From Spirogloea muscicola (taxonomy: Eukaryota): 64,000 bases of DNA. Made by a program: the position numbers and the translations under genes. The notes under the pieces are model-generated. The model had not been told where the DNA came from and made no database searches. It saw only the letters and a program-made list of their open reading frames with translations. The stretch lies in assembly GCA_009602725.1 (NCBI GenBank), contig WELB01000002.1:483780-547779 (forward strand), read 5' to 3'. This document shows positions 7,501-44,206 of the stretch, one piece after another (the stretch's first letter is position 1; each line of letters begins with the position of its first letter).

Positions 7501-10500
7501 TTACCAGGTGGCACCGATTGAATTAGGAAACGTCAACCCAGCACCAAATGCTCCGAGATTCTGGAGCATCTCAACAACGTCTATCATTGTTGGCCTTTGT
7601 TTTGGGATATTGGAGCAGCAAAATAGCCCCGCTTTCAAGGCGCCCCGTATTTCGTCCACTTTCTTGGGGACGAATGGAGCTAGCGCCATATCAACACACT
7701 CCAACAGGCTTCTTCTGATTAAGGCAGGATCGCACCCACAAGATTAAGCTGCCACCAGCTGCAACCTCGGTCTGAAAGAAAGGGTCAACAGGCCGTTTGC
7801 CAGTGACAGTCTCCAGCAGCATCTCTCCAAAACTGAAGACATCGCTGTACTCGGTCAGTTGGCCTAGGGCGCAGTCTGGAGCGAGATACCCGATTGTGCC
7901 TGCCCATGTGCATCACCGTAACGTCATGAATTGCAGGAAAGATGACCCATGATCATTGCGAGGCAGTCTGAGGTGCCTCTACCAGCATGTATCAACACAT
8001 CCTTCTTGCACGATGCCAGAGAGCCTACGGTACAGCTCAACGGACATTGAAGGGCATATAAAGTTTACCTGCAGCCATGGTTGAAACGTGCGTTTCATGT
8101 GCCAGAAAGGCTCGTGCAAGCCCAAAATCCGCCACATAACCTTGACCATGTTCATCCAACAAGGTGTTGTTTGGCTTAACGTCCCTATGCAGCACACGAG
8201 GACTGCACTCATGATGCAGGTACTTAAGCCCAACTGCTGCATCCAACATGACCTTCATCCGTGCAGCCCAGTGATCAAACGCTTCTGGCTTTGGAGGCAC
8301 GCCCTGGCTCCCGTGCACCAAGTGGTCAAGATTTCCGCCAGGCAAGAAAGGATAGATGAGGAGCATGCCCGCTTGGCTGTCCCTGGGGATGTACCAGCCC
8401 TGTAGCGGGACCAAATTGCGATGTCTGATGCGACTCAGTGTCTCCACCTCGGCTTTCACCGATCGCAATCCTTCCTCGCTGTCTGCTGGTAGCCTCTTCA
8501 CTGCATACCTTTGGCCATTCTCCATCTGCGCACTGCTTAGCATCTCCATCGAAATGATCGTAAGTTTGTGTATACTTGACTTTAAGGAGAGGCCTGAACA
8601 ATTTGCACCAAGGATAGCACACCACCTTGCAAGTAGGCAAAGCTACTTACAAGTAGACTTTTCCAAAGCCCCCAATGCCAACTATAAAATCATCATTGAA
8701 GTTCTCAGTTGCATCCATGAGCTCCTTGAAGGTGAAGGGCGCATGGAGTCTATCCTGCGTGATGGACATCTCGGACCAGAAGTGCTGAATGCTCCGCTCC
8801 TTGTCTGGCATAGTCTTGTCCTTCGTCTTCCTCCAAGCTAAGCAGCACAGCAGGAGAAGTCCCAACAACAGGAGGAGAAGGACAACAGCCCCAACAACAA
8901 TGCCAGCAACTGCGCCCCCTGATAAGCTTGATGACTTGTGCACTGGAGGTGGTGGGGAAGGAGGATGAGGTGGGGGAGCTGTCTTGCAGGTCACATAAGG
9001 GCCGCCACACAAGCCGGCATTGCCAGAGAAGGAGCTGTTGCTGTACTGACCAATAGAACCGCCAGGAATGGGCCCACTGAGGTTGTTGTTTGAGTTATTA
9101 AAGAAGAGAGTAAGATTTAAATTCGCAAAGGACGCCGGAATGCTGCCATTGAGATCATTGTTGGAAAAATCGAGATAGGTAAGACTCGGCAGGTTGCCGA
9201 TACCCTCCGGTATGGGCCCACTGAATGAGTTGCTTGCCATCACCAGCTCTTGCAAGTTCTCCAGGTTGGAGAAGGTTGTCGGGATCGGTCCAGAGAGCTT
9301 GTTGCCAGCAAGCACGAGCCCCTTGAGCAGGACAAGCCTCCCCAACTGAGGCGGCACAAGGCCAGTTAACCTGCCAGTGATCCGGTTTAGCTGCTAAGAT
9401 TGCCAGCTGCGGCTCTTCTGCAATCTATGTATCTGCTGACACGGCAGATCAGGCAGCCTATGGCTGCATCAAAGACGCAGTCATTAGTCAGCTCCTTGCA
9501 AGGTCCAGGCAGCTACTGTTGCATGAGATAACCACAAAGTTTAGCATAGATATATGGCTGACACTTAGCAGAGGGCAGCTTCGAGCCTACTGGTTGTTGT
9601 TGACAGAAAGAACGCTGAGACTGGTGCAGTTCCCCAGCTCAGGCGGCAAAATACCAGTGAGGCTGCAATGCAAGGAAGAGCAAAGCTTAAATACAAAGTT
9701 GCCAGCATTTGGGCTATTACTGAACACAAATTGCAGTCAGCTCCTTTCAGGTCCGGGCAGCTACTCTCCATCTCTCGCTCTAGGTACTCTCCTTAAAATT
9801 GCTCACTTTGACAATGAGATGCAACCTTACGAGAATATAATATCACTTGTCATTGCCTGTTCTGGCACACACTGACACGTCATGAGAATAGCTGCAGGAA
9901 CAAAAAGTAGAACCCTCACAGCTCAATATAGCTGCACGGATCTTGATGATTTTTTTAGGAAACCTGGACCTGACTAAATCGCGATTCCAGATAGATCTCC
10001 CAAGCGCTGGCAAATTGCCATTACTGCATGCCAAGTGCATGCAGGAGGATGCACAGTAGTAGTTGCTGACCCTAATCACTATCAAGAATCCTGCTCATCA
10101 GAGCAGAAAGGTGTCTCCGCAATAAGCTGTGCATTTGCAACCCTCGAATCTGGTGAACCTTTGGCATGCTCACCTGTTGTCGTTGAGGTGGAGTTCGCCA
10201 AGCTGCGGGAGGCCACCCAGCCCCGGAGGGATGGGGCCCGAGAAAGAGTTGTAGGACAGATCTAAGTACGTCAGGTTGCCTATATTGGCAAGCTCCGGTG
10301 CCAGCGTGCCTTTGAATTGCCCGTCTCCCAGATAGAGGCCAGTCACTCGCCTGCAGATGTGTACAAGCGGCAAGCAGCGGAGAGAGCTGAGCTTGATCAG
10401 ATCTTGAACTCACACTGCACCTAGCAAGGAGCTCGCAGCAACGCTGCTGCTGGCTCTGAGGCCCTCCACGGAGCTGCCGCTAGTCCTGTGGCTGCAGAGG

Positions 10501-11084: not shown

Positions 11085-11610
11085 AAGAAAGAGCTCGCCC
11101 ATTGAGGATAGGGGCTGGAACAGCCAGCCCAAAATAGAATGGACAAAGTACGAGAAGGGAGCCAGGGGAAGCGCTAAGAAAACCAAGCACAAGAAGAAAC
11201 AAAGCAGCTACGAATGACTCAGTAATTCCTGCTGAGCAGCCGCAGATCGGAGATGCTAGGGTCCTGGAAGTGGGTCCCCTGGACAGAGCCAGAGGCAGCA
11301 GCTAGGGCTCTTCCGGCACGAAGGTGCAGCGCACGGGCCATGGACCTCTGCAGCGAGACGGCCAAGCGCATGCGATACACTTGCGCCAGCGACCCGGCTG
11401 CTGAAAAGTGGCTCTCCCAACGGGCTGGCTTTCACAGCCGCTCTGTTAATATCATCAGCAGCCGCTTACTCAACGGTGGGCCAGGGGCCGTGAGAAAAGC
11501 GCGGCCGAATTGACTGGTGGCTGGGAGAAGCCAGCCCAAAAGGAATGGACAAGGTCAAGAGGAGCCGAATGGCGCAAAAAGCAGGGGACTAAGTGCTAAG
11601 ACGACAAGGA
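11085..11610 (-). mobile_element. Cluster of RLE-LINE 3' ends
   Basis: GSLAQVYRMRLAVSLQRSMARALHLRAGRALAAASG...SDLRLLSRNY* (stop ~11219-11221) and GGGCTGGCTGTTCCAGCCC 3' motifs. Confidence 0.75.
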
Positions 11611-11839
11611 GGCTTGTCGTGCCGTATCCTGTCGACTGCTCATTTCTGTCGATCTGACTAGGACCGCTGACTGGGCTTCACACGTGACCTTACTAGGCTG
11701 ACTCATTCACTTCGGTGGGTGATTCACGCTGAGGATGAAGGACCACTTTTCTCCCTATGTGGCTCCTAGGCTGGGTCATACACTTTTGTGTGTGATTCAC
11801 GCTGACAATGGAGGTTCCACCCATCTCTGACTCTCGACG

Positions 11840-11870
<31 letters not shown>

Positions 11871-12808
11871 CGGCGGAGCGACTACAAGGGCCAATGCCCA
11901 CGCACGACGCCAACCTGCCGAAGACCGTTCAAAGCGCGACGAGGGAAGCCCATCTACAGGGACCTCAACCACCAACAAGACCGTCAAGGTGGGCGCTACC
12001 GAAGCAGTGGAAAGGCGACCGTGGAACAGACGGCCGAAGACCACCAACTCAAGGTCAGGTCGACCACTGGGTCGAATGAACGGCCCTGAGAGACCACCCT
12101 TTCCCCTTAGCCAACCAGCGAGCAGCGCACCTAGCCAATCAGGTAGCGCTAAGGTTTCACCGCATCCGGCCCATGTCGGAGCGCGCGAGCCCTGCCAAGC
12201 AGTTCGCTTGGCAAATCTCACCCTCCTGCCGCGCCTGCGCCCACCGCGCCTGTGCCGACCAAGCCTGCGTATACTCGCGCCTGCGTCCGCGAGAGCGTAG
12301 AGCCCGGCGCCCACGGCGTGCGCGCTTAGTGAGCGTTGCGCGAACCCGCTAGCGACTGCGAGAAGTCGTATTTCTTCTGTAGTGAGCAGCTTATCATTGC
12401 GCTGTTCTTGCGAGTCTTACCATCGGAGTGCTGTGCTCATTGCTTGTGCACACGTCTTTGCATTGGTTGCTTGTTTGCACGTAAGGCGCGCCCTTGAGGC
12501 CCCTTTACCATATTCACAAAAGGCGCGCCCTTGAGGCCCCTTTGAATATTGGTGGTGAACCTAGATAGGGCCGGTCTTCGGACGGTCGTGTGACTGAGAT
12601 ACTGGTGACGGGAAACTCGCGATACAGTGGCACGTTACTTTCATTTGCCAAGCGAACTCTGAGCTTGAGTTTATTGCATTGGATTGCTAGTACTTGCTTG
12701 AACTCTGCTCAAGGCTGCAAGTGCGACTGTTATCTCTGAGTTAGATTGTTGCCAGTGTTATCGATCAACTGTCGATTGCGTTGTGATCTGTTTTTCGGCT
12801 ACTATTGC

Positions 12809-15800
12809 ATGAGACTCAGGTCAGGCAATATCGTCAATCTGGAGCCTGAAGGTGAAGTTGCTTCGACAGACATTGATCTTGCATCTGAGCCAACTGGTAC
12901 TGCTGTTGCCGAATCACGTGTGGCGGCAGGTAGCTCAAGCGAGATCTCAACAACGATACGCTTTCGGAAAAGCATCAACATGGCATCAGGAGACTTGCCA
13001 AAATTCCAAGGTACACATAGCAGTGTTACTTTATCTGATGTGAAGAAACATTTCTTAGCAGAGTTGTGTCAACTGGACATGCACGGTTGCAAGGTCAGCA
13101 GGGAGTCGAAAATGACTTTACTAGCGAAGTATTTCACTGGGGACGCTGGATATATGTATGAGCAGCTTAGTGATGAGGTTTTGTCCATGACAAACCCAGT
13201 GCCTGAGTCGGCTACAGAGGTCGAAAAGCTGGCAGGTCCTCAACTAGTCGATCCTGTGGCCGAAGTCTTCCGTCGGTTCGCCAAGCAATTTCCAGAAGAC
13301 ACTCTGCAACACAAGCGAGATCTTCTTAGGTTCCAGCGAGAACCTAACGAGAATATAACAGTTTGTTATTTCAGATACGTGAAGCTGATAGAGAAGTCAG
13401 ACACCACTATCAGTCATCAGGATTTGGCGGCACAGTTCTTACGTGTTGTAGCTGGTAAAGCTCTCTGGCATGTAGTCGATTTATTGACTGTGCGCAGGCA
13501 ACAGCTCAACAAGAAACATTATGACATTCATGATGTCTATCAAGTCATGTTGGAGAGGGAGGCTGCAGAGTTCACTTTGAAAAGCTTAGATGATCGCTTT
13601 CCTGAAGTGTCCAATCCCTTCACCAGATCTGACAAGAAGTTTGGTGGTCCTGTGGTCAAGAAGCCCTTCACGAAGGCACATGTAGCCATCCCTGATGTGC
13701 AGCAGGTACCTGACCATTACAGACCTCGTCCGGCTGTGACTTGCCACAATTGTGGTAAGATTGGACACATGTCAAAACATTGTGCAGCTAGACATCAGAC
13801 TGCAGGTGCTACCTGTGGTCATTGTGCTAGATCAGGACATGTTGAGTCGCAATGTTGGCGAAAACACCCTGATAAATTGCCTGTACAATTTCGTGGCAAG
13901 AAGGCTTTGGAGATGGGAAAGCCTCCAGCTGACGGTGGTCGTGTGGATGGAGACCAACTACAGAAGTTGCAGAGACAGATTGAACAGCTGACACAACAGT
14001 TAGCTGCAAGCGAGATCAAGGCCAAGTCTAGTGCTAAGTCGGCCGCAGCTGCTGTTGTGCACTCAGATGTAGAAGAGGATGAGGATGACCTTGCAGGCAT
14101 GTATGAGGCTCAGTATGCAGCAGGGACTTCTCATAAGTATGGGTATTCTCACCTGGCATCGATTGTTGCTGCAGTACCGGAGTCTTCTAACACGGCAAGC
14201 AGAAACCCAATGAAGCGAGGTGAAAATGCTATGCAGCAACTTGCTAGGACCGGCAATGCTAGGTACCCTGCAAGTTTCAAATTGAAGGCCACTCAACCTG
14301 ACTTTCTTCTATCACAGCCTCAGCTTGTTGTGAAGTCCACAGAGCCGAAGGTTACTAATCCCACTTCACTTAGTTTTGATTGCACGTTGTCCGCTGGGAA
14401 GCTGTTGGACAGGTTGTACACAGCACCTGTTTTGAGCATCAACGACCTAGGATGGACGAAAGAGGCATTGAGTAACATGCTGACCAATACTGCAGTTGAG
14501 GTTGTGCAGAACTTGCAGACTACATCTGTCGGAACTGCCACCTACTCTGAGAATAGGGCACAGTCATGTGGTTTGGATATTGTGCCTCTCAGGTCATCGG
14601 AGGAACGAAAGAAACAGTTTTCCACAGTGACAATGCTAGATAATAGTTCAGGCATATTAGAGGTCAATGCAGTCAAGCCTAATGTCGTGTTGTTAGACAC
14701 AGGGGCTCAACCGATCCTTTTGGGTCGGCGTATGATCGCTGAACTGGGTCTAGACTCTTGTGACATAGCCCCCAGTAACATCAAGATTAAGACTGCTACT
14801 GGTGGTACAGATGCTATCTTAGGACTGACCAGAAAGCCAGTTCAAATTACTCTGTATGCCAATGTCCCTAGCAGACGGACTACTTTGTCAGTGATCTGCA
14901 TGATCACTAAAGCTAGAAGTTATGACATTCTGCTAGGAACTCAATTTCTGGTGCCCATAGGTTTCGGTATGGATTTTTACAGTGAAGCAGCTTGGTATAG
15001 ACCTGATTGGCTAAATGCTGGTACTGACATTGTCCCATTACCGTTGATGAAATCGTGTACCAATGCAGACATTGAGGCCAATGCAGGGGTGCCAACTACA
15101 GACGATGTTGTGGACAGTGAGGAGCTAATGAAGCAATTGGAGAATGGACTGGAGGGAACAGAGGAGCCAACTGAAGAGCAGTTGGCCAGTCTGAGAGATG
15201 AGCTGAGGGAGATGGAGGATGTGACTCCCCCAGCCAATTCGCCACCGACCGATGCACCAGCTATTGCTCCATTAGTCAATGTTCCATCAGCTGCTACTGC
15301 TATCACTGCTGCTGCTGCGACTGCCGCTGCTGCGACTGCCGCTGCTGCTATCACTACTGCTATCGCTACTGCTGCTGCGACTGCTGCTGCGGCGACTGCC
15401 GCTGCTGCTGTTACTACTGCTACTGCTGCTACTGCTACCGGTGCTGCTGCTGCAACTGCCGCTGCTTCTGCCACTGCTGCTGCTGCTACTACTGCTGCTG
15501 CTGCTGCACCACCAACGGCACCAGCACCACCAGCGCAGAATCCACCAGGTGGACAGAAGAGAGAAATTTCACCGGCGTTTCTACGTGCAGCACTTCAGCC
15601 TGCCAAAATGATGAAACCACTCACTGCAGCAGGACTGAGTGACAGGGACTTGGCAGAGTTGACCGTTGAGGAGAATTTCCGACGGTACCTTGCGATGTTA
15701 CCAGATTGGTCTGCCACGGCAGCAATTCGGGTGGAGGAAGCATGGACATTCAAAACTTTCAATGTTTCGATGACCAACCCAGGACAAAATGAAGAGGCAG

Positions 15801-16975
15801 CCGAAGATAGGAGATTCTACGCCGGAGTTATCCCTTTCGAGTTTGGAGAGCAGGGATTAGTGGTACTAGAGTTGTTTGGAGGCAGCGCCGCAGGGTTGGC
15901 GGGTTTGTTGCGCAGCCGCTACCGAATTGCGCAGTATATTTACGTGGATAATAATCCGGCCTCACGTGAAGCTGCAGCCCACCACATCTCCATACTCAAG
16001 GAGCGGTACAACCACCTGGTGACTCCAAATACGTTTGCAACCTGGGATACTCTACTCCCAGGAGATATCCGGGAAGCGGAGAAAGTGGAGTACCTCAAAC
16101 TCTTACCCCAGGTGGACCTGGTTATCGCAGGCTTCCCTTGCGAGGGCTTCAGCCCTGCAGGCCGAGGGGAGGGATTCGGTCATGTCAACTCAGCCCTTTT
16201 CTTCCCAATGCTACGCATCCTAAAACATATCCGTAGCAGACAAAGGAAGCCCATGGCTTACATAATAGAAAATGTACAGCCAGATGATGATGCCATTGAT
16301 GCGAACAACCATTTCCGTAGGTTGTATCACATATTGGGTCCTTTTGTGACCTTAGATGCGGCAAGGGTTAGCTCGTTAGCCGACCGGAAAAGAATTTTTT
16401 GGACAAATCTGGCACCTGCGCAGCTCCTGCAAGCCTGCATCAACGGCCAGGAACGACATGACAACGCCAGGGTTGAGCTCATCCTTGATGCCGGACGGAG
16501 GGTACCACTGGTCACACTTCAAGCGACACAACATCCAGTGAACCGTCCAGGACAAGTGCGATGCACTTTACCGACCTTGGTGGCTTCTGACAAGTCTGCC
16601 GGATTCAGAATCCGGAATGGTATCATTGGTCAGGGCATGATCCTCGTTTCGCCTGTGAATACTCCAGATGTTTATGCTACGCCAACACCTCGCGAACGCG
16701 AGAAAAGCATGGGCTTCTGGCCTGGCGACATCACTCCCCATCACTTCCCTGATGTGCTCAAAAATCGTATCATAGGTCAAGCCTTTGATCTTAATGCCAT
16801 TACCTGGTTGGCTAGTGTGCTTGGTCGCTTACAGACTAAGTATCGCATGCTGAGAGTAGCGTATGAGCGTAGTCTTCTACCTCCACCTCAAGGTTCTCCA
16901 ATGTCGGTGATTGATAGGCGCATGCTGACCCTATTCCGATTTGTTGAAGCAGAGAGGGAAGAGGATGACGAATAG
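12809..16975 (+). CDS. ORF1: Gag (two CCHC knuckles) - aspartic protease - Ala/Thr linker - C5 cytosine DNA methyltransferase
   Basis: Likely start MRLRSG (ATG 12809; frame open from 12746); CHNCGKIGHMSKHC and CGHCARSGHVESQC; LLDTGAQ protease motif (~14690); DNMT motifs downstream. Confidence 0.9.
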   Translation: MRLRSGNIVNLEPEGEVASTDIDLASEPTGTAVAESRVAAGSSSEISTTIRFRKSINMASGDLPKFQGTHSSVTLSDVKKHFLAELCQLDMHGCKVSRESKMTLLAKYFTGDAGYMYEQLSDEVLSMTNPVPESATEVEKLAGPQLVDPVAEVFRRFAKQFPEDTLQHKRDLLRFQREPNENITVCYFRYVKLIEKSDTTISHQDLAAQFLRVVAGKALWHVVDLLTVRRQQLNKKHYDIHDVYQVMLEREAAEFTLKSLDDRFPEVSNPFTRSDKKFGGPVVKKPFTKAHVAIPDVQQVPDHYRPRPAVTCHNCGKIGHMSKHCAARHQTAGATCGHCARSGHVESQCWRKHPDKLPVQFRGKKALEMGKPPADGGRVDGDQLQKLQRQIEQLTQQLAASEIKAKSSAKSAAAAVVHSDVEEDEDDLAGMYEAQYAAGTSHKYGYSHLASIVAAVPESSNTASRNPMKRGENAMQQLARTGNARYPASFKLKATQPDFLLSQPQLVVKSTEPKVTNPTSLSFDCTLSAGKLLDRLYTAPVLSINDLGWTKEALSNMLTNTAVEVVQNLQTTSVGTATYSENRAQSCGLDIVPLRSSEERKKQFSTVTMLDNSSGILEVNAVKPNVVLLDTGAQPILLGRRMIAELGLDSCDIAPSNIKIKTATGGTDAILGLTRKPVQITLYANVPSRRTTLSVICMITKARSYDILLGTQFLVPIGFGMDFYSEAAWYRPDWLNAGTDIVPLPLMKSCTNADIEANAGVPTTDDVVDSEELMKQLENGLEGTEEPTEEQLASLRDELREMEDVTPPANSPPTDAPAIAPLVNVPSAATAITAAAATAAAATAAAAITTAIATAAATAAAATAAAAVTTATAATATGAAAATAAASATAAAATTAAAAAPPTAPAPPAQNPPGGQKREISPAFLRAALQPAKMMKPLTAAGLSDRDLAELTVEENFRRYLAMLPDWSATAAIRVEEAWTFKTFNVSMTNPGQNEEAAEDRRFYAGVIPFEFGEQGLVVLELFGGSAAGLAGLLRSRYRIAQYIYVDNNPASREAAAHHISILKERYNHLVTPNTFATWDTLLPGDIREAEKVEYLKLLPQVDLVIAGFPCEGFSPAGRGEGFGHVNSALFFPMLRILKHIRSRQRKPMAYIIENVQPDDDAIDANNHFRRLYHILGPFVTLDAARVSSLADRKRIFWTNLAPAQLLQACINGQERHDNARVELILDAGRRVPLVTLQATQHPVNRPGQVRCTLPTLVASDKSAGFRIRNGIIGQGMILVSPVNTPDVYATPTPREREKSMGFWPGDITPHHFPDVLKNRIIGQAFDLNAITWLASVLGRLQTKYRMLRVAYERSLLPPPQGSPMSVIDRRMLTLFRFVEAEREEDDE
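15854..16810 (+). other. C5 DNA methyltransferase catalytic domain (DNMT3-like appearance) within ORF1
   Basis: Motifs in canonical order: I VLELFGG, II YVD, III GDI, IV DLVIAGFPCEGFS, VI IIENV, VII DAA, VIII RKRIFWTNL, IX EREKSMGF, X IGQAF. Confidence 0.9.
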
Positions 16976-16981
16976 CAATTA
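16973..16981 (+). promoter_or_regulatory. Stop-codon readthrough signal UAG-CAA-UUA between ORF1 and pol
   Basis: TAG CAA TTA matches the tobamovirus-type UAG-CAR-YYA leaky-stop consensus; the same frame stays open from 16976 to 20089. Confidence 0.8.
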
Positions 16982-19900
16982 CAATGTGTAGCCCATACTG
17001 CTGATAAATCCATTGTTGAGTACAAGTGGCAGCTGGGTCTTCAGTTGAGTGATGAACAGAGGCATCGACTAACGATAATGCTTCAGGAGAATATTGCATG
17101 TTTTGCTTTCTCGGCAGCTGACTTAGGTACTTATGTGGGTGCCAAGTTCCAAATTAAACTCAGTGACGACAAGCCTATCTTCCGGAAGAGGTATACCTTG
17201 TCTCCATATGAGGATGAGCTTGTAGCGAAGAGATGTCAAGAACTGCTTGCTCTTGGTATGATAGAACCATCTAATAGTTCTTTTGCAGCACCTACAGTCC
17301 TACCAGCGAAGAAAGACGAGCATGGCAACTATACTGACAGACGCATGTGTGGTGACTACCGGTTGCTGAATGCAAATACACCCTTGGATAGGTATCCAAT
17401 GCCCACTCCGGAAGAGATTTTTAATCGCATAGGTTCTGCAAAGCTTTTCTCTGTCTTGGATTTGAAAAATGGGTTCAATCAAATTGCAATTGAGCCTGAT
17501 GATAGACACAAGACTGCATTCTGGGGCGTAGATACACTATATCAATGGACAAAGATGCCGTTTGGACTGAAGAATGCACCGTCTATGTTTCAGCGTGTTA
17601 TGGACCAGGTGTTGAAAGGAGTTCCATACGCCAAATGTTACATAGACGATGTTCTGATATTCAGTCATGAATTTGTTGAGCATGTGACTCATATTGACTC
17701 TGTTCTTAAGATGATACAGAGTTCAGGTTTGAAGTGCCATCCAGGAAAATGCCGGTTTGCACTCACTGAGGTCCATTATCTTGGGCATCAGATAACAGAG
17801 AATGGTCTTTCTCCGCAAGATAGCAAGGTGCAAGCAATCCTGTCCATTCCTGCACCTACCAATCTTACATCTTTGAGATCGTTTTTAGGACTTGCCAGTT
17901 TCTATCGTCGGTATATTGAGCATTTTAGCTCTTTGGCTCGTCCTCTCAACAGTCTGCTCAAAAAGAATACGCCTTGGCTATGGGGATCGGAACAGGAACA
18001 CGCTTTTTGCCAGTTGAAGCATTCACTGACAACAGCTCCTGTTTTACGACGTCCTGATTATGCTAAAGAGTTCCAGTTGCATACAGACTGGAGCAAACTC
18101 GGCATGGGAGCTGTACTTGTGCAGCAGGACGAAGATCACCATGATTATGTCATTGCTTATGCAAGTCGTTCTAACAATGCTGCCCAACGTAATTACTCTG
18201 CTTATGAAGGCGAATGTCTTGCAGCTGTTTGGGCTGTCACGCATTTTAGACCGTACTTATATGGACGACCTTTCAAGCTCGTCACAGATCATCAACCTTT
18301 GAAGTGGTTACTGACCACTAATCATTTGACTGGCAAACTCGCCCGATGGGCACTACGTTTGACAGAATATAAGTTTGAAATTGTTCATAAGCCAGGACTG
18401 CAGAATCTGGACGCAGATGCTCTGAGCCGCAACCCTATACCGGCAACTATGGATGAGCAATTCGCCTTGCTTTCAATTGCTATTGTGTCAGTACCTCTGA
18501 GTAGTCCTGCTTCTTACCTGGCATGCTTTGCTATGCATTCGCCACATGCCTGTGCTATAGACGGCCCTGATGATACCTTCTTTTCCAAAGATGTTTGGCT
18601 GGATCTGCCTGCACTTCATTACCTACAGAATGGCATGTATCTACCTCATCTTTCTACCATACAGAAGGATCGGGTAAAACACCGGGCCCGACGCTATGTC
18701 TGGCAAAACAATCAACTTGTTCGTCCGCATGAGGAATACGGAAACCAGGTTGTTCCTCCTCCTGCTGAACGCTTACAACTCGTCCAAGATGTTCATACGA
18801 ATTATGGACACTTCGGTGTAAAACGTACAATCAGTCTTCTCATGCCTAGATATTGGTGGCATGGTGTGACCAACACTGTTAAACAGGTTCTGTCACAATG
18901 TGAGGAATGCGACCGCATCCGTAGCACATTCTCCCTGAAGTCTCCAGTATTACATCCTTTGCCAATTGAAGGGCTCTTTTACAGATGGAGTCTTGATTTG
19001 GCGGGACCACTTCGACTGGGTGAACGGCAAAGGCCGTATGTTCTCATTATGATCGAGCATTTCTCTAAATGGGTAGAAGTTGTTATTATTCCTACCAAAA
19101 CTAGTGAACTCATCGCTGATGCTTTCAAGAATGCTGTGCTCACCCGGTATGGTGCTCCAGCAGAAGTGCTTACTGATCGAGGCACTGAATTCAAGGGTGC
19201 CTTTCAGCAGCTGTTGGACCGCAGCTTCATTGATCACCGTCTTACATCAAGGGATCATCCGCAGGCTGATGGTTTAGCAGAGCGGATGGTGCAGACGATA
19301 AAGAAAGGTTTGATGAAATATGTGATGAAACATGGCATGGAACGCTGGGACCAATTTTTACCATGGCTGATTATGGGCTATCGAATGTCAAACCAGACTT
19401 CTCTGTCTTGCTATAGTCCCTATTTTCTGCTATTCGGTCGACACCCTGTCATTCCATCTAACATCCGTCTTGTCAGTAACGACGTAAACCTGGATAACCC
19501 AGTGATTTGGTACAAGGTCTGCGCGGCCAGAGGCAAACTCTTCCAGAAGCATATGCCGATGGCCCTGAACAACTTGCGTATCGCTCAGCATCGGGATACT
19601 AACAGGTACGCTACCATTCGTAGTGGTGGGTACAAACCACAGTCTAAAGACATTGATCTTGGTGACTTTGTGTATGTGAAGGTGAAACCACAAGACGCCT
19701 TAGACTCTTCAACAGGACCTCTCATCCTTCAGGTTGTTGAGAAACACTCTTCAGGTGTGGTTAAACTTCGTGGTTCATGCAATCGTGTAATCAGTGATCA
19801 TGTTCAAAATGTTACACGTTGTCATCTGAGCAATATTGATCCAACCATTGACCCCACTAACCAATGGGTTTCTGAGAATCTATCTTGTGAACTTTGTCAG

Positions 19901-20089
19901 CGTTCCGATCAGGCAGTTCAAATGCTTTTATGTTCTCTTTGCAATAGGGGTTTCCATATACACTGCCTTGATCCACCACTGACTTCTATTTCACTGGCTG
20001 ATTGGTTCTGTGTGACCTGTTCAGATACTTTCCTAACTGCTCCACCTGTGCCAGGACTGACACTTGGGGGGGGGGGAACTACAGATTAA
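16976..20089 (+). CDS. pol: Pol: reverse transcriptase - RNase H - DDE integrase - C-terminal PHD finger
   Basis: RMCGDYRLLN, LDLKNGFNQI, MPFGLKNAP, YIDD (RT); TDWS...E...TDH...DADALSR (RNase H); H-H-CEEC, DLAG, TDRG, AERM (integrase); C4HC3 PHD at 19886-20020. Confidence 0.95.
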   Translation, partial: QLQCVAHTADKSIVEYKWQLGLQLSDEQRHRLTIMLQENIACFAFSAADLGTYVGAKFQIKLSDDKPIFRKRYTLSPYEDELVAKRCQELLALGMIEPSNSSFAAPTVLPAKKDEHGNYTDRRMCGDYRLLNANTPLDRYPMPTPEEIFNRIGSAKLFSVLDLKNGFNQIAIEPDDRHKTAFWGVDTLYQWTKMPFGLKNAPSMFQRVMDQVLKGVPYAKCYIDDVLIFSHEFVEHVTHIDSVLKMIQSSGLKCHPGKCRFALTEVHYLGHQITENGLSPQDSKVQAILSIPAPTNLTSLRSFLGLASFYRRYIEHFSSLARPLNSLLKKNTPWLWGSEQEHAFCQLKHSLTTAPVLRRPDYAKEFQLHTDWSKLGMGAVLVQQDEDHHDYVIAYASRSNNAAQRNYSAYEGECLAAVWAVTHFRPYLYGRPFKLVTDHQPLKWLLTTNHLTGKLARWALRLTEYKFEIVHKPGLQNLDADALSRNPIPATMDEQFALLSIAIVSVPLSSPASYLACFAMHSPHACAIDGPDDTFFSKDVWLDLPALHYLQNGMYLPHLSTIQKDRVKHRARRYVWQNNQLVRPHEEYGNQVVPPPAERLQLVQDVHTNYGHFGVKRTISLLMPRYWWHGVTNTVKQVLSQCEECDRIRSTFSLKSPVLHPLPIEGLFYRWSLDLAGPLRLGERQRPYVLIMIEHFSKWVEVVIIPTKTSELIADAFKNAVLTRYGAPAEVLTDRGTEFKGAFQQLLDRSFIDHRLTSRDHPQADGLAERMVQTIKKGLMKYVMKHGMERWDQFLPWLIMGYRMSNQTSLSCYSPYFLLFGRHPVIPSNIRLVSNDVNLDNPVIWYKVCAARGKLFQKHMPMALNNLRIAQHRDTNRYATIRSGGYKPQSKDIDLGDFVYVKVKPQDALDSSTGPLILQVVEKHSSGVVKLRGSCNRVISDHVQNVTRCHLSNIDPTIDPTNQWVSENLSCELCQRSDQAVQMLLCSLCNRGFHIHCLDPPLTSISLADWFCVTCSDTFLTAPPVPGLTLGGGGTTD

Positions 20090-20289
20090 AATTCGACTGT
20101 TCTTGACTTGTCCATGGTGCTGTGATGTCTGGCATGGTTCCTTAGCAGATGGATTTTCATGACAGTCTGGTCAAAGTAGCCAATATTCTCGTTTGGCTTG
20201 TGTGTACACCAAACTAGCAAGTCGGCATTTCTCTTCTTCTAGACCTATCGACGCCATCTCGCACCGACGCCCTCGCGCGTGACAGGCTC

Positions 20290-20386
20290 TCAGTACCCTC
20301 TAGTCAGCAAGTGCAGGTCAGAATAGCTAGAGGGCGGGAAGATGTCGCCCTGACGAAACCCGGAGGCAGCCGCCAGGGCGCGGCCC
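20290..20386 (-). mobile_element. RLE-LINE C-terminal fragment whose 3' UTR was split by the gypsy-like insertion
   Basis: RALAAASGFRQGDIFPPSSYSDLHLLTRGY*; its UTR continues leftwards from 11614 to ~11500. Confidence 0.75.
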
Positions 20387-20690
20387 TGTGAGCGAGAGCA
20401 CCCAGTGGCCACTTGAGTTGCTGTGCGCTTTGATGACGCTTATGCGCCAACCGGCCCTTTCAGGCCTTGTACACCCTTCGGGCTGGCTGTTCACAGCCCT
20501 AGCCCCCCTTCGGGAGACCCACTTGCCATCTCTCTTGCCGTGGGAAGCGCTTACTCTCTCCCCTTATCCACTCCTTGACTTTTCCAAGACTCCTGACGCT
20601 CGTCCTCTTTGAGGCTGACACCTCGCGCGCCGCCACCTGCGCGCAGCCCCCCGCCTCTGGCACCGCCCACGAAGTCCCGCTCGTCTGAGC

Positions 20691-20776
20691 ATGGCAGCCG
20701 CTCTGGCCGGCGCAGCCGCGGCGCTCGTCGCCGTCGCGCAGCTGGATTGCTTCGCCTCCGCCGCCGGGGACCCTGA
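20691..20776 (+). pseudogene. Orphan LRR-RLK signal-peptide first exon
   Basis: MAAALAGAAAALVAVAQLDCFASAAGD followed by a GT donor; near-identical to 39533-39618 and 25954-26051; no downstream exon on this strand. Confidence 0.6.
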
Positions 20777-20999
20777 GTGGGCAGCCCGTCCTCCTCCGTC
20801 CACTTCTGGCCACTTCAGTCGCTGTGTGCTCTAACGATTGTCCGGCCCCTTCGTTCATTCCTTTTCTGGGCTGGCCTCTCCCAGCCACCGCGCTCTCATG
20901 GAAGCATCTTACTTTCGAACTTCATTCATCCTGTTATTTGCGCTGGCCGATCACAGCCATCGCCCTCTACAAGGCCCGAAAGGGCCGGGCAGTCAGCCT

Positions 21000-23261
21000 T
21001 CCGAGGTCCGGGCAGCTTTTGTTGCATGAGATTTTCAAAAAGCATAGCAGAGAAATATTGTTAAATTTGGGCAGAGGGCAGCTTCGAGCCTACTGGTTGT
21101 TGTCGACAGACAGAACACTGAGACTGGTGCAGTTTCCCAGCTCAGACGGTAAGATACCAGTGAGGCTGCAATGCAAGGAAGAGCAAAGCTCACATACAAA
21201 GTCGCCAGCATCTGCGCTTTCCCTAAGCACAAATTGTCAGCTCCTTTCAAGGTCCGGGCAGCTACTGTTGCATGAGATAAGCAAACAGTATAGCAGAGAT
21301 AAATGGCTGACACTTGGCAGAGGGCAGCTTCGAGCCTACTTGTTGTTGTTGACAGAAAGAACACTGAGGCTGGTGCAGTTCCCCAGCTCAGACGGTAAAA
21401 TACCAGTGAGGCTGCAATGCAAGGAAGAGCAAAGCTCACAAACAAAGTCGCCAGCATCTGGGCCTTTTTTTAGAACACAATCTGCAGTCAGCTCATTTCA
21501 AGGTCCGGGCAGCTCCTGTTGCATGAGATATCCAAACAGTACAGCAGAAATATATGGCTGACACTTGGCAGAGGGCAGCTTCGAGCCTACTGGTTATTGT
21601 CGACAGAAAGAACTCTGAGCCTGGGGCAGTTTCCCAGCTCAGATGGTAGAATACCAGTGAGGCTGCAAGGCAAGGAAGAGCAAAGCTCACATACAAAGTC
21701 GCCAGCATCTGGACCTATTGTTAAACACAATCTGCAGTCAGCTCCTTTCAAGGTCCGGGCAGCTACTGTTGCATGAGATATCCAAACAGTACAGCAGGAT
21801 TATATAGCTGACACTTGGCAGAGGGCAGCTTCGAGCCTACTGGTTGTTGTTGACAGAAAGAACGCTGAGAGAGGTGCAGTTGCCCAGCTCAGACGGTATG
21901 TTACCCGAGAGGCTGCAATGCAAGGAAGAGTAAAGCTCACATACAAAGTCGCCAGCATTTGGGCTTTTACTAAATACAAATTGCAGTCAGCTCCTTTCAG
22001 GTCTGGGCAGCTACTCTTCATCTACTGCTCTAAGTACTCTCCTACATGTTGGTCAATCTGACAATCAGATGCAACCTTACAAAGAATACATGATCACTTG
22101 TCATTGCCTGTCCTGCCACACACTGACATGTCATGACAATAGCTGAACATAATAGAAGCAAAACTCTCACGGCTCAACATAGCTGCACATCTCCTAATGA
22201 ACTTTTGAGGAAACCTGTTCCTGACTAAAGCTCGATTTCAACTAGATCTCCAGAACGCTGGCAAATTCCCATTAGTGCATGCCAGTGCATGCAGGAGGAT
22301 GTACAGTAGTAGTTGCTGACTCTAATCACCAGATGAAATCCTGCTCATCTGAGCATAAAGAATCCTCTGCAATAAGCTGTGCATCTGCAACCCTCAGATA
22401 TGGTCAACCTTTGGCATGCTGACCTGTTGTCGTTGAGGTAGAGTTCGCCAAGCAGCGGGAGGCTACCCAGTGCAGGAGGGATGGGGCCCGAGATACAGTT
22501 GTTTGACAGGTATATGTTGTACAGGCTGTCAACATTGGCAAGCTCCGGTGCCAGCGTGCCGTTCATTTGCCCGTCGTTCAGAAAAAGCCCAATCACTAGC
22601 CTGCACGTGTGTACCAGCGGCCAGCAGCGGAGAGAGCTGAACTTGATCGGTCTTGGACTCACACTGCACCTCGCAAGGAGCTCGCAAATACGCTGCTTGC
22701 TCAGTAGCCCTCCACTGAGCTGCCGCTAGTCCTGTTGCTGCAGAGGAGGCGGGCCCTGCAGGGTCACGACCTCGACTCTGGCGGCCGCTGGAGTTAACAA
22801 TGCTTGTGCACTGCCTGATTTCGTTATCGTTGTCGCACAAAACACCGTGCCAGTCGCACGGCCAGTTATGACTGGTGAGGCGCCAGTCGGTGAGATAGCC
22901 ATAGGGGTCGTGGGTGATGCGAGCCTTGAAGGCCAGCAGCGCAGCCTGGTAAGAGCTGCGCGGGTGAGGATGACGGGCACTCAGCCGGGGAGGGGGGCAC
23001 ACGGAGGCCCACGCAGCTGTGGCGCTGGAGTGCAGCCGCAGCAGGGAGCCCGACGGCGAGTGTGGCGGACGAGGAGAGGGCTCGCAGGCGCAATGTGCTT
23101 CGTTTGGGAGAGCCACTTGATGCTCTAGGCGCAATGTGCTTCCTGGCGCAGGAGTAGCCGCGGCGCGGAAGGGCTGCTCACTTGAGGTCCCCGGCGGTGG
23201 CGGAGCCGAGGCGGGTGAGCAGCGCGACGGCGGCGAGCGCTGCGGCTGCCATGCTCGCCAT
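21000..23261 (-). pseudogene. LRR-RLK copy B, 3'-truncated (signal peptide, N-cap, 2-LRR exon, four tandem 72-nt LRR exons; no TM or kinase)
   Basis: MASMAAAALAAVALLTRL; AALLAFKARITHDPYG; GTLAPELANVDSL; four ~247-bp units with acceptors near 21913, 21663, 21412, 21165; homology ends at a TE mosaic near 21000. Confidence 0.8.
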
Positions 23262-23854: not shown

Positions 23855-24658
23855 NNNNNNNNNNNNNNNNNNNNNNNNNNNNNNNNNNNNNNNNNNNNNN
23901 NNNNNNNNNNNNNNNNNNNNNNNNNNNNNNNNNNNNNNNNNNNNNNNNNNNNNNNNNNNNNNNNNNNNNNNNNNNNNNNNNNNNNNNNNNNNNNNNNNNN
24001 NNNNNNNNNNNNNNNNNNNNNNNNNNNNNNNNNNNNNNNNNNNNNNNNNNNNNNNNNNNNNNNNNNNNNNNNNNNNNNNNNNNNNNNNNNNNNNNNNNNN
24101 NNNNNNNNNNNNNNNNNNNNNNNNNNNNNNNNNNNNNNNNNNNNNNNNNNNNNNNNNNNNNNNNNNNNNNNNNNNNNNNNNNNNNNNNNNNNNNNNNNNN
24201 NNNNNNNNNNNNNNNNNNNNNNNNNNNNNNNNNNNNNNNNNNNNNNNNNNNNNNNNNNNNNNNNNNNNNNNNNNNNNNNNNNNNNNNNNNNNNNNNNNNN
24301 NNNNNNNNNNNNNNNNNNNNNNNNNNNNNNNNNNNNNNNNNNNNNNNNNNNNNNNNNNNNNNNNNNNNNNNNNNNNNNNNNNNNNNNNNNNNNNNNNNNN
24401 NNNNNNNNNNNNNNNNNNNNNNNNNNNNNNNNNNNNNNNNNNNNNNNNNNNNNNNNNNNNNNNNNNNNNNNNNNNNNNNNNNNNNNNNNNNNNNNNNNNN
24501 NNNNNNNNNNNNNNNNNNNNNNNNNNNNNNNNNNNNNNNNNNNNNNNNNNNNNNNNNNNNNNNNNNNNNNNNNNNNNNNNNNNNNNNNNNNNNNNNNNNN
24601 NNNNNNNNNNNNNNNNNNNNNNNNNNNNNNNNNNNNNNNNNNNNNNNNNNNNNNNNNN
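23855..24658. other. Assembly gap (N run)
   Basis: Run of N characters. Confidence 1.
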
Positions 24659-32330: not shown

Positions 32331-35300
32331 TTACCCGGTGGCACCGGTTGACTTAGGAAACGTCAACCCAGCACCACATGATTCGAGATTCTGGAGCATC
32401 TCAACAACGTCAACCATCGTTGGCCTTTGTTTTGGGATATTGGAGCAGCAAAATAGCCCAACTTTCAAGGCGCCCCGTATTTCGTCCACTTTCTGGGGGA
32501 CGAATGGAGCTAGCGCCATATCAACGCACTCCAATGGCTTCTTGTGATTAAGGCATGATCGCACCCACAAAATTAAGGTGCCACCAGCTGCAACCTCGGT
32601 CTGAAAGAAAGGGTCAACAGGCCGTTTGCCAGTGACAGTCTCCAGCAGCATCACTCCAAAACTGAAGACATCGCTGTACTCGGTCAGTTGGCCTAGGGCG
32701 CAGTCTGGAGCGAGATAACCGATTGTGCCTGCCCATGTGCATCACCATGACGTCATGAGTTGCAGGAAAGATGACCCATGATCATTGCGCGGCAGTCTGA
32801 GGTGCCTCTACCAGCATCTACCAACACATCCTTCTTGCACGGTGCCAGAGAGGCCTACGATACAGCTCAGCAGACATTGAAAGGCAGTAAAAGCTACCTG
32901 CAGCCATGGTTGAAACGTGCGTTTCATGTGCCTGAAAGATTCGTGCAAGCCCAAAATCGGCCACGTAACCTTGACCATGTTCATCCAACAAGGTGTTGTT
33001 TGGCTTGACGTCCCTATGCAGCACACGAGGACTGCACTCATGATGCAGGTACTTAAGCCCAACTGCTGCATCCAATATGACCTTCATCCGTGCAGCCCAG
33101 TGATCAAACGCGTCTGGCTTTGGAGGCACGCCCTTGCCCCCGTGCATCAACTGGTCAAGATGTCCGCCAAGCAAGAAAGGGTAGATGAGGAGCATGCCCG
33201 CTTGGCTGTCCCTGGGGATGTACCAGCCCTGTAGAGGGACCAAATTGCGGTGTCTGATGCGACTCAGTGTCTCCACCTCAGCTTCCACCGATCGCAATCC
33301 TTGCTTGCTGTCTCCTGCTAGCCTCTTCACTGCATACTTTTGGCCATTCTTCATCTGCGCACTGCTCAGCATATCCATACAAATGATGTATAGATTTGTT
33401 TGAGGCCATATTTTAGGGAGAGGCCTGGACAAGCAACACCAAGAAAAACACACCACTTGCAAGTGGGGAATCCACTTACCCGTAGACTTTTCCGAAGCCC
33501 CCGAAGCCAACTATCAACTTTTCATTGAAGTTCTCAGTTGCATCCATAAGCTCCTCCAAGGTGAAGGGAGCTTGTAATATATCCTGCGTGATGGACATCT
33601 CGGAGCAGAAGTGCTCAAAGGTCCGCTTGTCTGGCATAGTCCTGTCGTTCTTCTTCTTCCAAGCTAAGCAGCACAGCAGGAGAAGTCCCAGCAACAGGAG
33701 GAGAAGGACAACAGCCCCAACAACAATGCCAGCAATTGCCGCCCCCGATAAGCTCGACGATTTGTGCTCTGGAGGTGGTGGGAAAGGCGGAAGAGAACGA
33801 GGTGGGGGAGCTATCTTGCAGGCCAAATAAGGGCCGCCACATAAGGCGGCATTGCCAGAAAAGGAGCTGCTGTTGAAATGACCAATAAGACCGTCTGGAA
33901 TAGGCCCACTGAGGTTGTTGTTGGAGATGTTAAAGAAGATGAGGCGACCCAGATTTGCAAAAGACGCCGGGATGCTGCCGTTGAGCTTGTTGTCAGAAAG
34001 GTCGAGACTGATCAGATCCGGCAGACTGCCAATGTCAACAGGTATGGGCCCGCTGAATAAGTTGCTTGCAGCCGAAAATGTGAAGAGGTAGAATAAATTT
34101 CCAATCTCCAGGGGGAGACTGCCTGTTAGGCGGTTGCTGGAGATGTCTAGGTTTTGAGCAATTTGCAGACCCCCAATGCTCGCAGGTACACCTCCGGTCA
34201 AATTGTTGTGATCTAGGTGAACACTCAATGCACTGCTTAGGTTGCCTAGCCACGCTGGAAATGGGCCAGATAATTTGTTATTGTCCATCTTCAGCACTTG
34301 CAATTTCTCCAGATTGGAAAAGTTTGTCGGAATCGGTCCAGAGAAGTTGTTGCCAGCAAGCCAGAGCTCCTTGAGCAGCACAAGTTTCCCCAACTGAGGC
34401 GGCACAAGGCCACTTACCCTGCCAGTTGGAAGTGAGCCGCTAAGATTGTCAGCTGTGGCTCCTGCAATTTATGTATCTGCTGACACGGCAAATCAGGTAA
34501 ACTATGGCTGCATCAAAGACGCAGTCACCAGTGAGCTCCTGTCAAGGTCCTGACAGCTACTGTTGCATGAGATATCCAAACAGTATAGCAGAGATGTATG
34601 GCTGACACTTGGCAGAGGGCAGCTTCGAGCCTACTGATTGTTGCTGACAGAAAGATAGCTGAGACTGGTGCAGTTCCCCAGCTCAGATGGTAAGATACCA
34701 GTGAGGCTGCAATGCAAGAAAGAGCAAAGCTCACATACAAAGTCGCCAGCAATTGGGTTTTCCCTTACACAAATTGCAGTCAGCTCCTTCAAGGTCCAGG
34801 CAGCTACTGTTGCATGAGATATCTAAACAGTATAGCAGAGATATACGGCTGACACTTGGCAGAGGGTAGCTTCAAGCCTACTGGTTGTTGTTGACTGAAA
34901 AAAAGCTGAGACTGGTGCAGTTCCCCAGCTCAGACGGTAAAAAACCAGTGAGGCTGCAATGCAAGGAAGAGCAAAGCTCACATGCCAGCATTTGGGCTTT
35001 CCCTAAACACATATTTCAGTCAGTTTTTTTCATGGTCCGGGCAGCTACTGTTGCATGAGATATTCAAACAGTACAGCAGTGATAAGTGGCTGACACCCGG
35101 CAGAGGGCAGCTTCGAGCCTACTGGTTGTTGTCGACAGAAAGAAGATTAAGTCTGGTGCAGTTCCCCAGCTCGGATGGCAGAATACCAGTGAGGCTGCAA
35201 GGCAAGGAAGAGCAAAGCTCACACACAAGATTGCCAGCATTTGGGCTTTCATTCAACACAAACTGCATTCAGCTCCATTCAAGGTCCGGGCAGCTACTGT

Positions 35301-43200: not shown

Positions 43201-44206
43201 ATTGAGATCGGTGAAAGCTGAGATGGAGACACTGAGTCGCATCAGACATCGCAATTTGGTCCAGCTACAGGGCTGGTACATCCCCAGGGACAGCCAAGCT
43301 GACATGCTCCTCATCTACCCTTTCTTGCTTGGCGGAAATCTTGACCAGTTGGTGCACGGGGGCAAGGGCGTGCCTCCAAAGCCAGACGCATTTGATCACT
43401 GGGCTGCACGGATGAAGGTCATATTGGATGCAGCAGTTGGGCTTAAGTACCTGCATCATGAGTGCAGTCCTCGTGTGCTGCATAGGGACGTCAAGCCAAA
43501 CAACACCTTGTTGGATGAACATGGTCAAGGTTACGTGGCCGATTTTGGGCTTGCACGAATCTTTCAGGCACATGACACGCACGTTTCAACCATGGCTGCA
43601 GGTAGCTTTTACTGCCTTTCAATGTCTGCTGAGCTGTATCGTAGGCCTCTCTGGCACCGTGCAAGAAGGATGTGTTGGTACATGCTGGTAGAGGCACCTC
43701 AGACTGCCGCGCAATGATCATGGGTCATCTTTCCTGCAACTCATGACGCGTCACGGTGATGCACATGGGCAGGCACAGTCGGGTATCTCGCTCCAGACTG
43801 CGCCCTAGGCCAACTGACCGAGTACAGCGATGTCTTCAGTTTTGGAGTGATGCTGCTGGAGACTGTCACTGGCAAACGGCCTGTTGACCCTTTCTTTCAG
43901 ACCGAGGTTGCAGCTGGAGGCAGCTTAATCTTGTGGGTGCGATCTTGCCTCAATAACAAGAAGCCTTTGGAGTGCGTTGACATGGCGCTAGCTCCATTCT
44001 CCCCCCAAAAAGTGGACGAAATACGGGGCGCCTTGAAAGCGGGGCTATTTTGTTGCTCCAATATCCCAAAGCAAAGGCCAACAATGGTTGACGTTGTTGA
44101 GATGCTCAAGAATCTCGGAGCATTTGGTGCTGGGTTGACGTTTCCTAAGTCATCATTGCCAATAGACGGGACGGCAATGGACAAGCTTTTGTGCCACGGG
44201 ACTTGA
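40245..44206 (+). CDS. LRR-RLK copy D, apparently intact
   Basis: Exons 40245-40312, 40537-40674 (GC donor), 40942-41118, 41631-41702, ~41916-41987, 42114-43019, 43137-43600, 43773-44206 splice in frame: signal peptide, N-cap, LRRs, GNPALCG, TM, RD kinase. Confidence 0.85.

What the first reader, a model, noticed from the sequence alone, without database searches (positions are those of the whole stretch)
16973..17047. TMV-type leaky stop placed after the methyltransferase
Seen: GAA TAG CAA TTA CAA, same frame on both sides, no further stop, and no in-frame ATG until inside the pol N-terminal region. Known: UAG-CAR-YYA drives readthrough in plants. Inference: Gag-PR-DNMT is abundant and RT-IN-PHD a minor extension, so protease and DNMT are made at capsid stoichiometry and could be packaged in many copies, unlike the usual gag|pro-pol split.
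Basis: partly seen in the sequence, partly recalled or inferred. Interest (0 to 1): 0.75.

Follow-up and report, generated by a model that had tools for sequence, protein, structure and literature searches.

The report
Leaky stop in methyltransferase-carrying Gypsy retrotransposon
A jumping gene, likely from a plant or green alga, has one stop codon between its coat-protease-DNA-methyltransferase gene and its copying-enzyme gene, followed by a read-through signal known from tobacco mosaic virus that one distant relative family shares and another nearly matches, so ribosomes likely run through the stop part of the time and would make less copying enzyme than methyltransferase.

Summary
Observation confirmed: one in-frame TAG-CAA-TTA (16973-16981) splits a 1411-codon Gag-protease-DNMT3 frame from a 1037-codon RT-RNaseH-integrase-PHD frame. 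The element resembles KnitGypsy-Dnmt3 (PMC5890265). A scan on an RT motif, blind to the stop, found two more families (54-59% RT identity) with a stop at this junction: TAG-CAG-TTA or TAG-CAA-TCA in 3 of 3 loci, and TAG/TAA-CAA-CCC in 11 of 11. The signal varies only within CARYYA in the first family and misses the last A in the second. Programmed readthrough is therefore likely (about 0.8) but is not shown at RNA or protein level. The split is not clade-wide: a 97-locus family, the window's nearest relative and a 2811-aa single polyprotein are open here, and one clade of stop-bearers is weakly rejected (p-AU 0.028). The stop would lower RT/integrase rather than raise DNMT; packaging of many DNMT copies is untested. 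Readthrough in retroelements and Gag-PR|RT splits are known; my searches found no TMV-type stop after a DNMT3. New variant of a known kind.

The parts
11615..12400 (+). 5' terminal region 'A' of the element; begins TGTCG after GGCT (11611-14); inner end uncertain
   Evidence: other copies join 20285 to 11615; homologous to the non-autonomous copy at 50491-49869
12740..16972 (+). ORF1, 1411 codons stop to stop (first ATGs 12809 and 12980): Gag-like region, protease, Ala/Thr-rich linker, DNMT3-type methyltransferase
13739..13855 (+). two CCHC zinc knuckles (nucleocapsid)
   Evidence: first by Pfam zf-CCHC, E 0.0006-0.0024, below the curated cut-off; second read from the translation
14663..14950 (+). 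aspartyl protease (LLDTGA)
   Evidence: Pfam gag-asp_proteas E 2.7e-4, below the cut-off; 39% identical to L109
15246..15534 (+). Ala/Thr-rich low-complexity linker between protease and DNMT
15848..16825 (+). C5 cytosine methyltransferase, DNMT3-like; motifs FGGSAAG, GFPC, ENV, RKRIFW and GQA present
   Evidence: PF00145 E 6.7e-12; best solved matches DNMT3A/3B/3C, E about 5e-18; alignment
16973..16981 (+). in-frame TAG plus CAA-TTA: likely type I (TMV-like) readthrough site
16976..20089 (+). ORF2, 1037 codons: RT (17333-17794), RNase H (17981-18370), integrase (18755-19261), PHD finger (19886-20020); ends in TAA
20066..20078 (+). polypurine tract (G11 AA), inside the end of ORF2
   Evidence: the same tract precedes 'B' in the non-autonomous copy
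20080..20284 (+). 3' terminal region 'B'; ends TGACA, followed by GGCT (possible 4-bp target duplication)
   Evidence: no direct repeat with 'A'; relatives show A-coding-B-A-B

Best explanation
The single TAG-CAA-TTA between the methyltransferase and the reverse transcriptase of this Gypsy-type retrotransposon is likely a programmed leaky stop: most ribosomes would stop and release Gag-protease-DNMT3, and a minority would read on to add RT-RNase H-integrase-PHD. Shown: the ORF layout, the domains, the motif, and a stop at the same junction in two other families. From the literature: the six bases UAG-CAR-YYA suffice for readthrough in TMV (PMC3542737); plant reporters give 32% for the TMV context and 11% for BNYVV, with tyrosine inserted (PMC2754532). 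Inferred: a near-cognate host tRNA decodes the UAG, the element's protease then cuts both polyproteins, and DNMT and protease come out at Gag level while RT and integrase are several-fold rarer. The window site needs no RNA structure by prediction; families 1 and 2 have a predicted 3' stem-loop that may assist, notably where the signal is the imperfect CAA-CCC. That the DNMT is packaged and methylates the new cDNA is a further, untested step.
For: Only one stop in 2450 codons, with catalytic motifs intact on both sides. Same TAG in a contig of another study. RT-motif scan blind to the stop: family 2, 3 of 3 loci with upstream DNA (of 6), TAG-CAG-TTA twice and TAG-CAA-TCA once; L109 and L185 are otherwise intact. 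The Leu-to-Ser change keeps YYA, which points to a nucleotide signal. Family 1: 11 of 11 loci (of 16; 9 distinct) have the stop (9 TAG, 2 TAA) then CAA-CCC, the only all-stop column of 849, next highest 0.38. RT identity between the three families is 54-67% and their linkers cannot be aligned. No conserved start codon follows the stop: ATG in family 1 and L082, GTG in L109 and L185, none for 34 codons in the window. The 27 nt before the window TAG are 11% pyrimidine, unlike a splice acceptor. The 120 nt after the stop fold at z -3.2 (L109) and -3.8 (L185), lower than 25 of 25 and 24 of 25 control windows.
Against: No RNA, ribosome or protein evidence. The junction is open in many relatives: family 0 (86 distinct copies, no column above 51% stops), 14 of 124 homologous proteins with DNMT joined to RT including the nearest relative P0040, and P0186. 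Stop-bearers need at least 3 changes on a 39-row tree, and one clade is weakly rejected (p-AU 0.028, group named after seeing the tree). Family 1 lacks the last A of CARYYA, has ATG two codons after the stop, and has a pyrimidine-rich run before its TAG (63%; family 2, 52-56%), which would also fit a splice acceptor or a restart. The window has no 3' structure (z +0.7), and structure is weak or absent in L114 and L068. In Tca2 a similar-looking gag-stop-pol junction did not direct readthrough in yeast and held a weak promoter (PMC2194720).
Confidence: 0.8

Rival explanations
1. RT-IN-PHD is made from a spliced RNA (the TAG being the AG of a 3' splice site, Ogre-like) or from a separate internal transcript or restart codon.
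For: [quoted passage not shown]
Against: The window has 11% pyrimidine before the TAG; neither route needs one open frame on both sides or a kept CAR-YY; the start codon is not conserved; the X5 contig, guessed to be RNA but possibly DNA, runs unspliced across the site; none of the 15 joints listed ends at 16976, but 199 were not shown.
Confidence: 0.12
2. The TAG is a chance nonsense mutation (CAG to TAG by methyl-C decay); the copy is dead or is mobilised in trans.
For: CAG-to-TAG decay is frequent in family 0, up to 51% of copies at one column; the nearest relative P0040 is open.
Against: A random stop is followed by CARYYA about 0.3% of the time, and 0 of 194 decay TAGs were; two other families carry a fixed stop at the same junction; no other lesion in 7.3 kb.
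Confidence: 0.04
3. The host reads TAG as an amino acid (variant genetic code), so this is one ordinary polyprotein.
For: TAR-to-Gln codes exist in some green algae (recalled, no call).
Against: 1 TAG against 109 CAA/CAG codons in the two ORFs; relatives in other records show the same single TAG at the same junction.
Confidence: 0.02

Closest known systems
KnitGypsy-Dnmt3 of Klebsormidium nitens (PMC5890265)
   Same: Gypsy domain set with a DNMT3-related domain; K. nitens KFL_009030040 (P0058) has PR-DNMT-RT-RH-IN in the same order; DIRS-like split repeats, seen here as A-coding-B-A-B in relatives and as a B-A joint in the window's family.
   Different: The paper places the DNMT in the Pol ORF with RT; its main text has 0 hits for readthrough or frameshift. 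Here a stop lies between DNMT and RT. RT identity to P0058 is about 44%.
[quoted passage not shown]
   Same: UAG-CAA-UUA, identical to the benyvirus context listed in PMC3542737 and matching UAG-CAR-YYA; a polymerase lies after the stop; no 3' structure predicted in the window.
   Different: A nuclear retrotransposon, not an RNA virus; the codon before the stop is GAA, not TMV's CAA; readthrough not measured; family 1 has CAA-CCC.
Retroelements with an in-frame stop: MuLV gag-UAG-pol, Tca2 and VdLTRE5 gag-UGA-pol, SIRE1 pol-stop-env, RIRE2 candidate (PMC2194720, PMC3441728, PMC2829016, PMC2754532)
   Same: Two ORFs in one frame, split by one stop.
   Different: Those stops follow gag (or pol in SIRE1); MuLV uses a pseudoknot; Tca2 and VdLTRE5 lack CARYYA. 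SIRE1 has a CARYYA-like signal (recalled; paper not held). None carries a DNMT before the stop.
Ogre (GAG-PROT | RT-RH-INT; PMC6317226)
   Same: Protease on the Gag side, break just before RT.
   Different: Ogre's ORFs are about 274 bp apart and joined by splicing; here they are 3 bp apart and in frame.

Membership tests
Ty3/Gypsy retrotransposons | Domain order GAG-PROT-RT-RH-INT | tested here: met
   the Gag region's nearest Atlas clusters (0.92-0.95) carry zf-CCHC, Retrotrans_gag and Ty3_capsid; the single-sequence fold was unusable, pLDDT 38
Ty3/Gypsy retrotransposons | Two long terminal direct repeats | tested here: not met
   no long direct repeat in 11300-20700 apart from the Ala/Thr run; ends TG...CA with GGCT on both sides; relatives have split repeats instead
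KnitGypsy-Dnmt3-like elements | DNMT3-related domain with catalytic motifs in a Gypsy coding region | tested here: met
KnitGypsy-Dnmt3-like elements | DIRS-like split repeats A-coding-B-A-B | tested here: inconclusive
   full pattern in L102, L108, L111; the window copy shows only A-coding-B, while contigs of its family join B to A (20285 to 11615)
KnitGypsy-Dnmt3-like elements | DNMT in the same ORF as RT | tested here: not met
   split by the TAG in the window and in families 1 and 2; met in family 0, P0040, P0186
KnitGypsy-Dnmt3-like elements | Methyltransferase activity | not testable with these tools
   the K. nitens enzyme was inactive in yeast, which the authors call inconclusive (PMC5890265 section 10)
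Type I (TMV-like) readthrough | Stop followed by CAR-YYA, in frame with a downstream ORF | tested here: met
   window and 3 of 3 family-2 loci; family 1 matches 5 of 6 positions
Type I (TMV-like) readthrough | Signal conserved while its surroundings diverge | tested here: met
   met in three families, absent in others
Type I (TMV-like) readthrough | Measured readthrough that depends on the six 3' bases | not testable with these tools
   needs a reporter assay or ribosome profiling
Ogre-type spliced GAG-PROT|RT junction | Non-coding spacer removed as an intron | tested here: not met
   no spacer, one open frame on both sides, purine-rich before the TAG; RNA itself not examined with raw reads

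The most novel reading that the evidence does not exclude
A clade of split-repeat, integrase-bearing Gypsy elements has more than once evolved a plant-virus-type leaky stop at the DNMT3|RT border, so that each particle carries its de novo methyltransferase at capsid level and in excess over RT and integrase, and methylates its own cDNA (or host DNA in trans) before PHD-guided integration; the clade switches between this design and a single polyprotein.
Probability: 0.25. Interest if true: 0.8.

Novelty: new variant of a known kind. Interest (0 to 1): 0.6.

Why it matters
What retrotransposon DNMTs do is open (PMC5890265, Discussion). A leaky stop at this border predicts a DNMT:RT ratio well above 1, and gives natural pairs of stop-bearing and open sister families for testing whether enzyme dose matters. 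It also predicts that the native DNMT product ends at this stop, which guides construct design after the inconclusive K. nitens assay. It adds a likely TMV-type recoding site in nuclear retrotransposons of the green lineage. It also shows that database 'Pol' proteins of this clade that start just before RT can be the read-through half of a larger protein (P0009 matches family 2).

Tried and rejected
No whole genome is held for the window, so copies in the host could not be counted, and no per-site table of the host's own copies at the stop was obtained: one search cut 1526 rows, and none of its listed X3, X4 or X6 pieces spans the stop. No RNA holder listed. Viral contigs gave nothing in the clade: 0 of 8 stretches confirmed, 64 distant RT hits at 31-39% that were not used, 0 motif matches. 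L186 was dropped as a chance motif match with no RT hit. Of 120 metagenome stretches 40 came with only about 300 nt of flank, too short to reach the junction; single-locus families L163 and L179 could not be scored. The genome behind L185 gave no second copy that covers the junction. A 3' RNA structure in the window is not supported at 60-250 nt. CpG depletion as a sign of self-methylation is not seen: 0.58 and 0.60 in the ORFs against 0.66 for the window. The single-sequence fold of Gag failed, so no fold search was run. Among the 150 best DNMT representatives, 10 are PR-DNMT proteins ending without RT (5 with tails of 69 residues or more), 7 run on into RT, 66 have RT/RH before DNMT, 17 have integrase but no RT after it, and 50 are uninformative; without DNA their ends may be contig ends or decay stops. 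Paper searches: searches returned 0 papers; searches listed none on this junction, judged from listings and the passages read. The SIRE1 paper, Gao et al. 2003 and Harrell et al. 2002 are not held. Earlier scan notes: nothing by sequence, by place or by the first word set.
Full report
Observation. The window reads GAA TAG CAA TTA CAA at 16970-16984. One frame runs from 12740 to 20089 with only this TAG and the final TAA; the other frames hold 128 and 177 stops. The first in-frame ATG after the stop is 34 codons on, at 17078. The 9-mer is not rare as such (4 matches, 4.8 expected), but only 0.24-0.38% of in-frame positions in three intact elements carry CARYYA. A contig from a different study spans the site with one difference elsewhere (run X5), so it is not an assembly error.

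What the element is. ORF1 holds a Gag-like region (Atlas neighbours with zf-CCHC, Retrotrans_gag and Ty3_capsid), two zinc knuckles, an aspartyl protease, an Ala/Thr-rich linker and a C5 methyltransferase; ORF2 holds RT, RNase H, integrase and a PHD finger. A profile of five such methyltransferases matches DNMT3A/B/C best among solved structures, and the window keeps the PC, ENV and RxR motifs. Named relatives come from Klebsormidium nitens, Closterium, Coleochaete, Calypogeia and some chlorophytes. Plant-type LRR-kinase fragments nearby suggest a streptophyte host; that is an inference. The element runs from 11615 (TGTCG) to 20284 (TGACA) with GGCT on both sides and no LTR pair. Relatives L102, L108 and L111 show A-coding-B-A-B, and contigs of the window's family join B to A. 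This fits the description of KnitGypsy-Dnmt3 in PMC5890265, which places the DNMT in the Pol ORF and has no hit for readthrough or frameshift in its main text.

Test of conservation. Clustering at 78% nucleotide identity gave families of 97, 16 and 6 loci and two singletons. Family 2: 3 of 3 loci with enough upstream DNA have TAG-CAG-TTA (L082, L109) or TAG-CAA-TCA (L185); L109 and L185 have no other stop in ORF1 or ORF2. Family 1, decayed copies: 11 of 11 (9 distinct) have TAG (9) or TAA (2) then CAA-CCC-ATG; this is the only all-stop column of 849. In all three families the stop sits 17-24 codons before the Trp that starts the RT-aligned region, in a linker that cannot be aligned between families, at 54-67% RT identity. 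As a control, 0 of 194 decay TAGs in family 0 have CARYYN.

Results against a clade-wide rule. Family 0 has no fixed stop from 1100 codons before the motif to 100 after it (86 distinct copies, highest column 51%); 60 of its 61 loci with enough upstream DNA have no stop-CAR 300-430 nt before the motif, and the two hits in L120 lie in or beside sequence that departs from the family. DNMT runs into RT in 14 of 124 homologous proteins, among them the window's nearest relative P0040 (65%), and P0186 is one 2811-aa Gag-to-PHD ORF. Some of these are gene models that could hide a stop behind a predicted intron. On trees of 117, 39 and 19 rows, families 1 and 2 share a well-supported clade with the open P0024/P0186, and the window falls outside it. 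At least 3 changes are needed, and one clade of stop-bearers is weakly rejected (p-AU 0.028; LG+G4, group named after the tree was seen). Gain and loss cannot be told apart. In 66 of the 150 best DNMT representatives the DNMT lies after RT/RNase H.

Mechanism. UAG-CAR-YYA is the defined type I signal (PMC3542737); in plant reporters the TMV context gives 32% and BNYVV 11% readthrough, with tyrosine inserted (PMC2754532). The same six bases also flank a plant nuclear gene, eRF1-1 (PMC5397192). I infer that most ribosomes end at the TAG and a minority add RT-RH-IN-PHD (confidence 0.8). The window has no predicted 3' structure (z +0.7); L109, L185 and L073 do (z -3.2, -3.8, -2.7), L114 weakly and L068 not, so a stem-loop helper in families 1 and 2 is a lead only. 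Splicing or an internal start (0.12) is disfavoured by the purine-rich run before the window's TAG and by the lack of a conserved start codon, but families 1 and 2 have pyrimidine-rich runs, and Tca2 shows that such junctions can mislead (PMC2194720). A chance nonsense change (0.04) and a variant code (0.02) fit poorly.

With no break between Gag, protease and DNMT in the window, L109 and L185, these would be made 1:1. The same holds for the single-ORF sisters, so the stop's effect is to lower RT, integrase and PHD. Whether DNMT is packaged, active, or acts on cDNA is untested; the K. nitens enzyme gave an inconclusive negative, and the ORFs show no extra CpG loss.

Novelty. In-frame stops are known in MuLV, Tca2, VdLTRE5, SIRE1 and, as a candidate, rice RIRE2; GAG-PROT first ORFs are known. 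Nine searches of the held library gave no report of a CARYYA stop between a DNMT and RT. Earlier notes of this scan list several unrelated readthrough candidates in other retroelements (unchecked), which lowers the surprise of readthrough as such. Verdict: new variant of a known kind, interest 0.6.

What I saw of each paper. PMC5890265: parts 1-2 of 7 of the text, sections 10 and 11, term passages, and a term search of 3 supplements; the main supplementary PDF, with the KnitGypsy figures, was too large to read and may show this ORF layout. PMC6317226: passages and section 13. PMC2754532: passages and section 5. PMC3542737, PMC5397192, PMC2194720, PMC2829016, PMC3441728: passages. The SIRE1 paper, Gao et al. 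2003 and Harrell et al. 2002 were not held; what I say of SIRE1's motif is recalled.

Noticed in passing
window 11615-20284; L102, L108, L111, L109, L185: Integrase-bearing elements with split direct repeats (A-coding-B-A-B) instead of LTRs; the B|A border reads GACA-GY-TGTC in L108, L109, L185 and the window's family. The window copy has only A-coding-B between GGCT duplicates (lost or collapsed A-B). How such an element is reverse-transcribed and integrated is unexplained.
   Followed up: partly
window 50491-48406, minus strand: A roughly 2-kb non-autonomous relative with A-like start (74%), the same polypurine tract and B end (93%), and no long coding region.
   Followed up: partly
P0002-P0004 and 66 of 150 representatives: A large sister group carries the DNMT between RNase H and integrase, so the domain has been placed at two positions in related Gypsy elements; several of these proteins also start just before RT, with the upstream junction unknown.
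   Followed up: partly
L073, L109, L185, first 120 nt after the stop: Predicted extended stem-loop starting about 10 nt after the stop, absent in the window; may support the imperfect CAA-CCC signal of family 1.
   Followed up: partly
family 0, codon -128 from the RT motif (e.g. L108): The open family has CAG-TTG (Gln-Leu) at about the place where the stop families have CAR-TYA; a relic of a lost stop or chance.
   Followed up: no
L190: A more distant Gypsy RT frame in the genome behind L185 begins after TAG-CAA-GCA, 406 codons before YxDD; CAR but not YYA.
   Followed up: no
window 8040-9393, 32821-34468 (minus), 42034-43714 (plus): Three related LRR plus protein-kinase segments, each with LRR and kinase frames split, next to arrays of a 250-bp repeat (9494, 20997-21981, 34538-37517).
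   Followed up: no
window 23855-24658: Assembly gap of 804 N.
   Followed up: no
window 12478-12543: Two copies of a 29-nt GC-rich repeat just before a possible primer-binding site (TGGTGGTGAACC at about 12552); tRNA match not tested.
   Followed up: no
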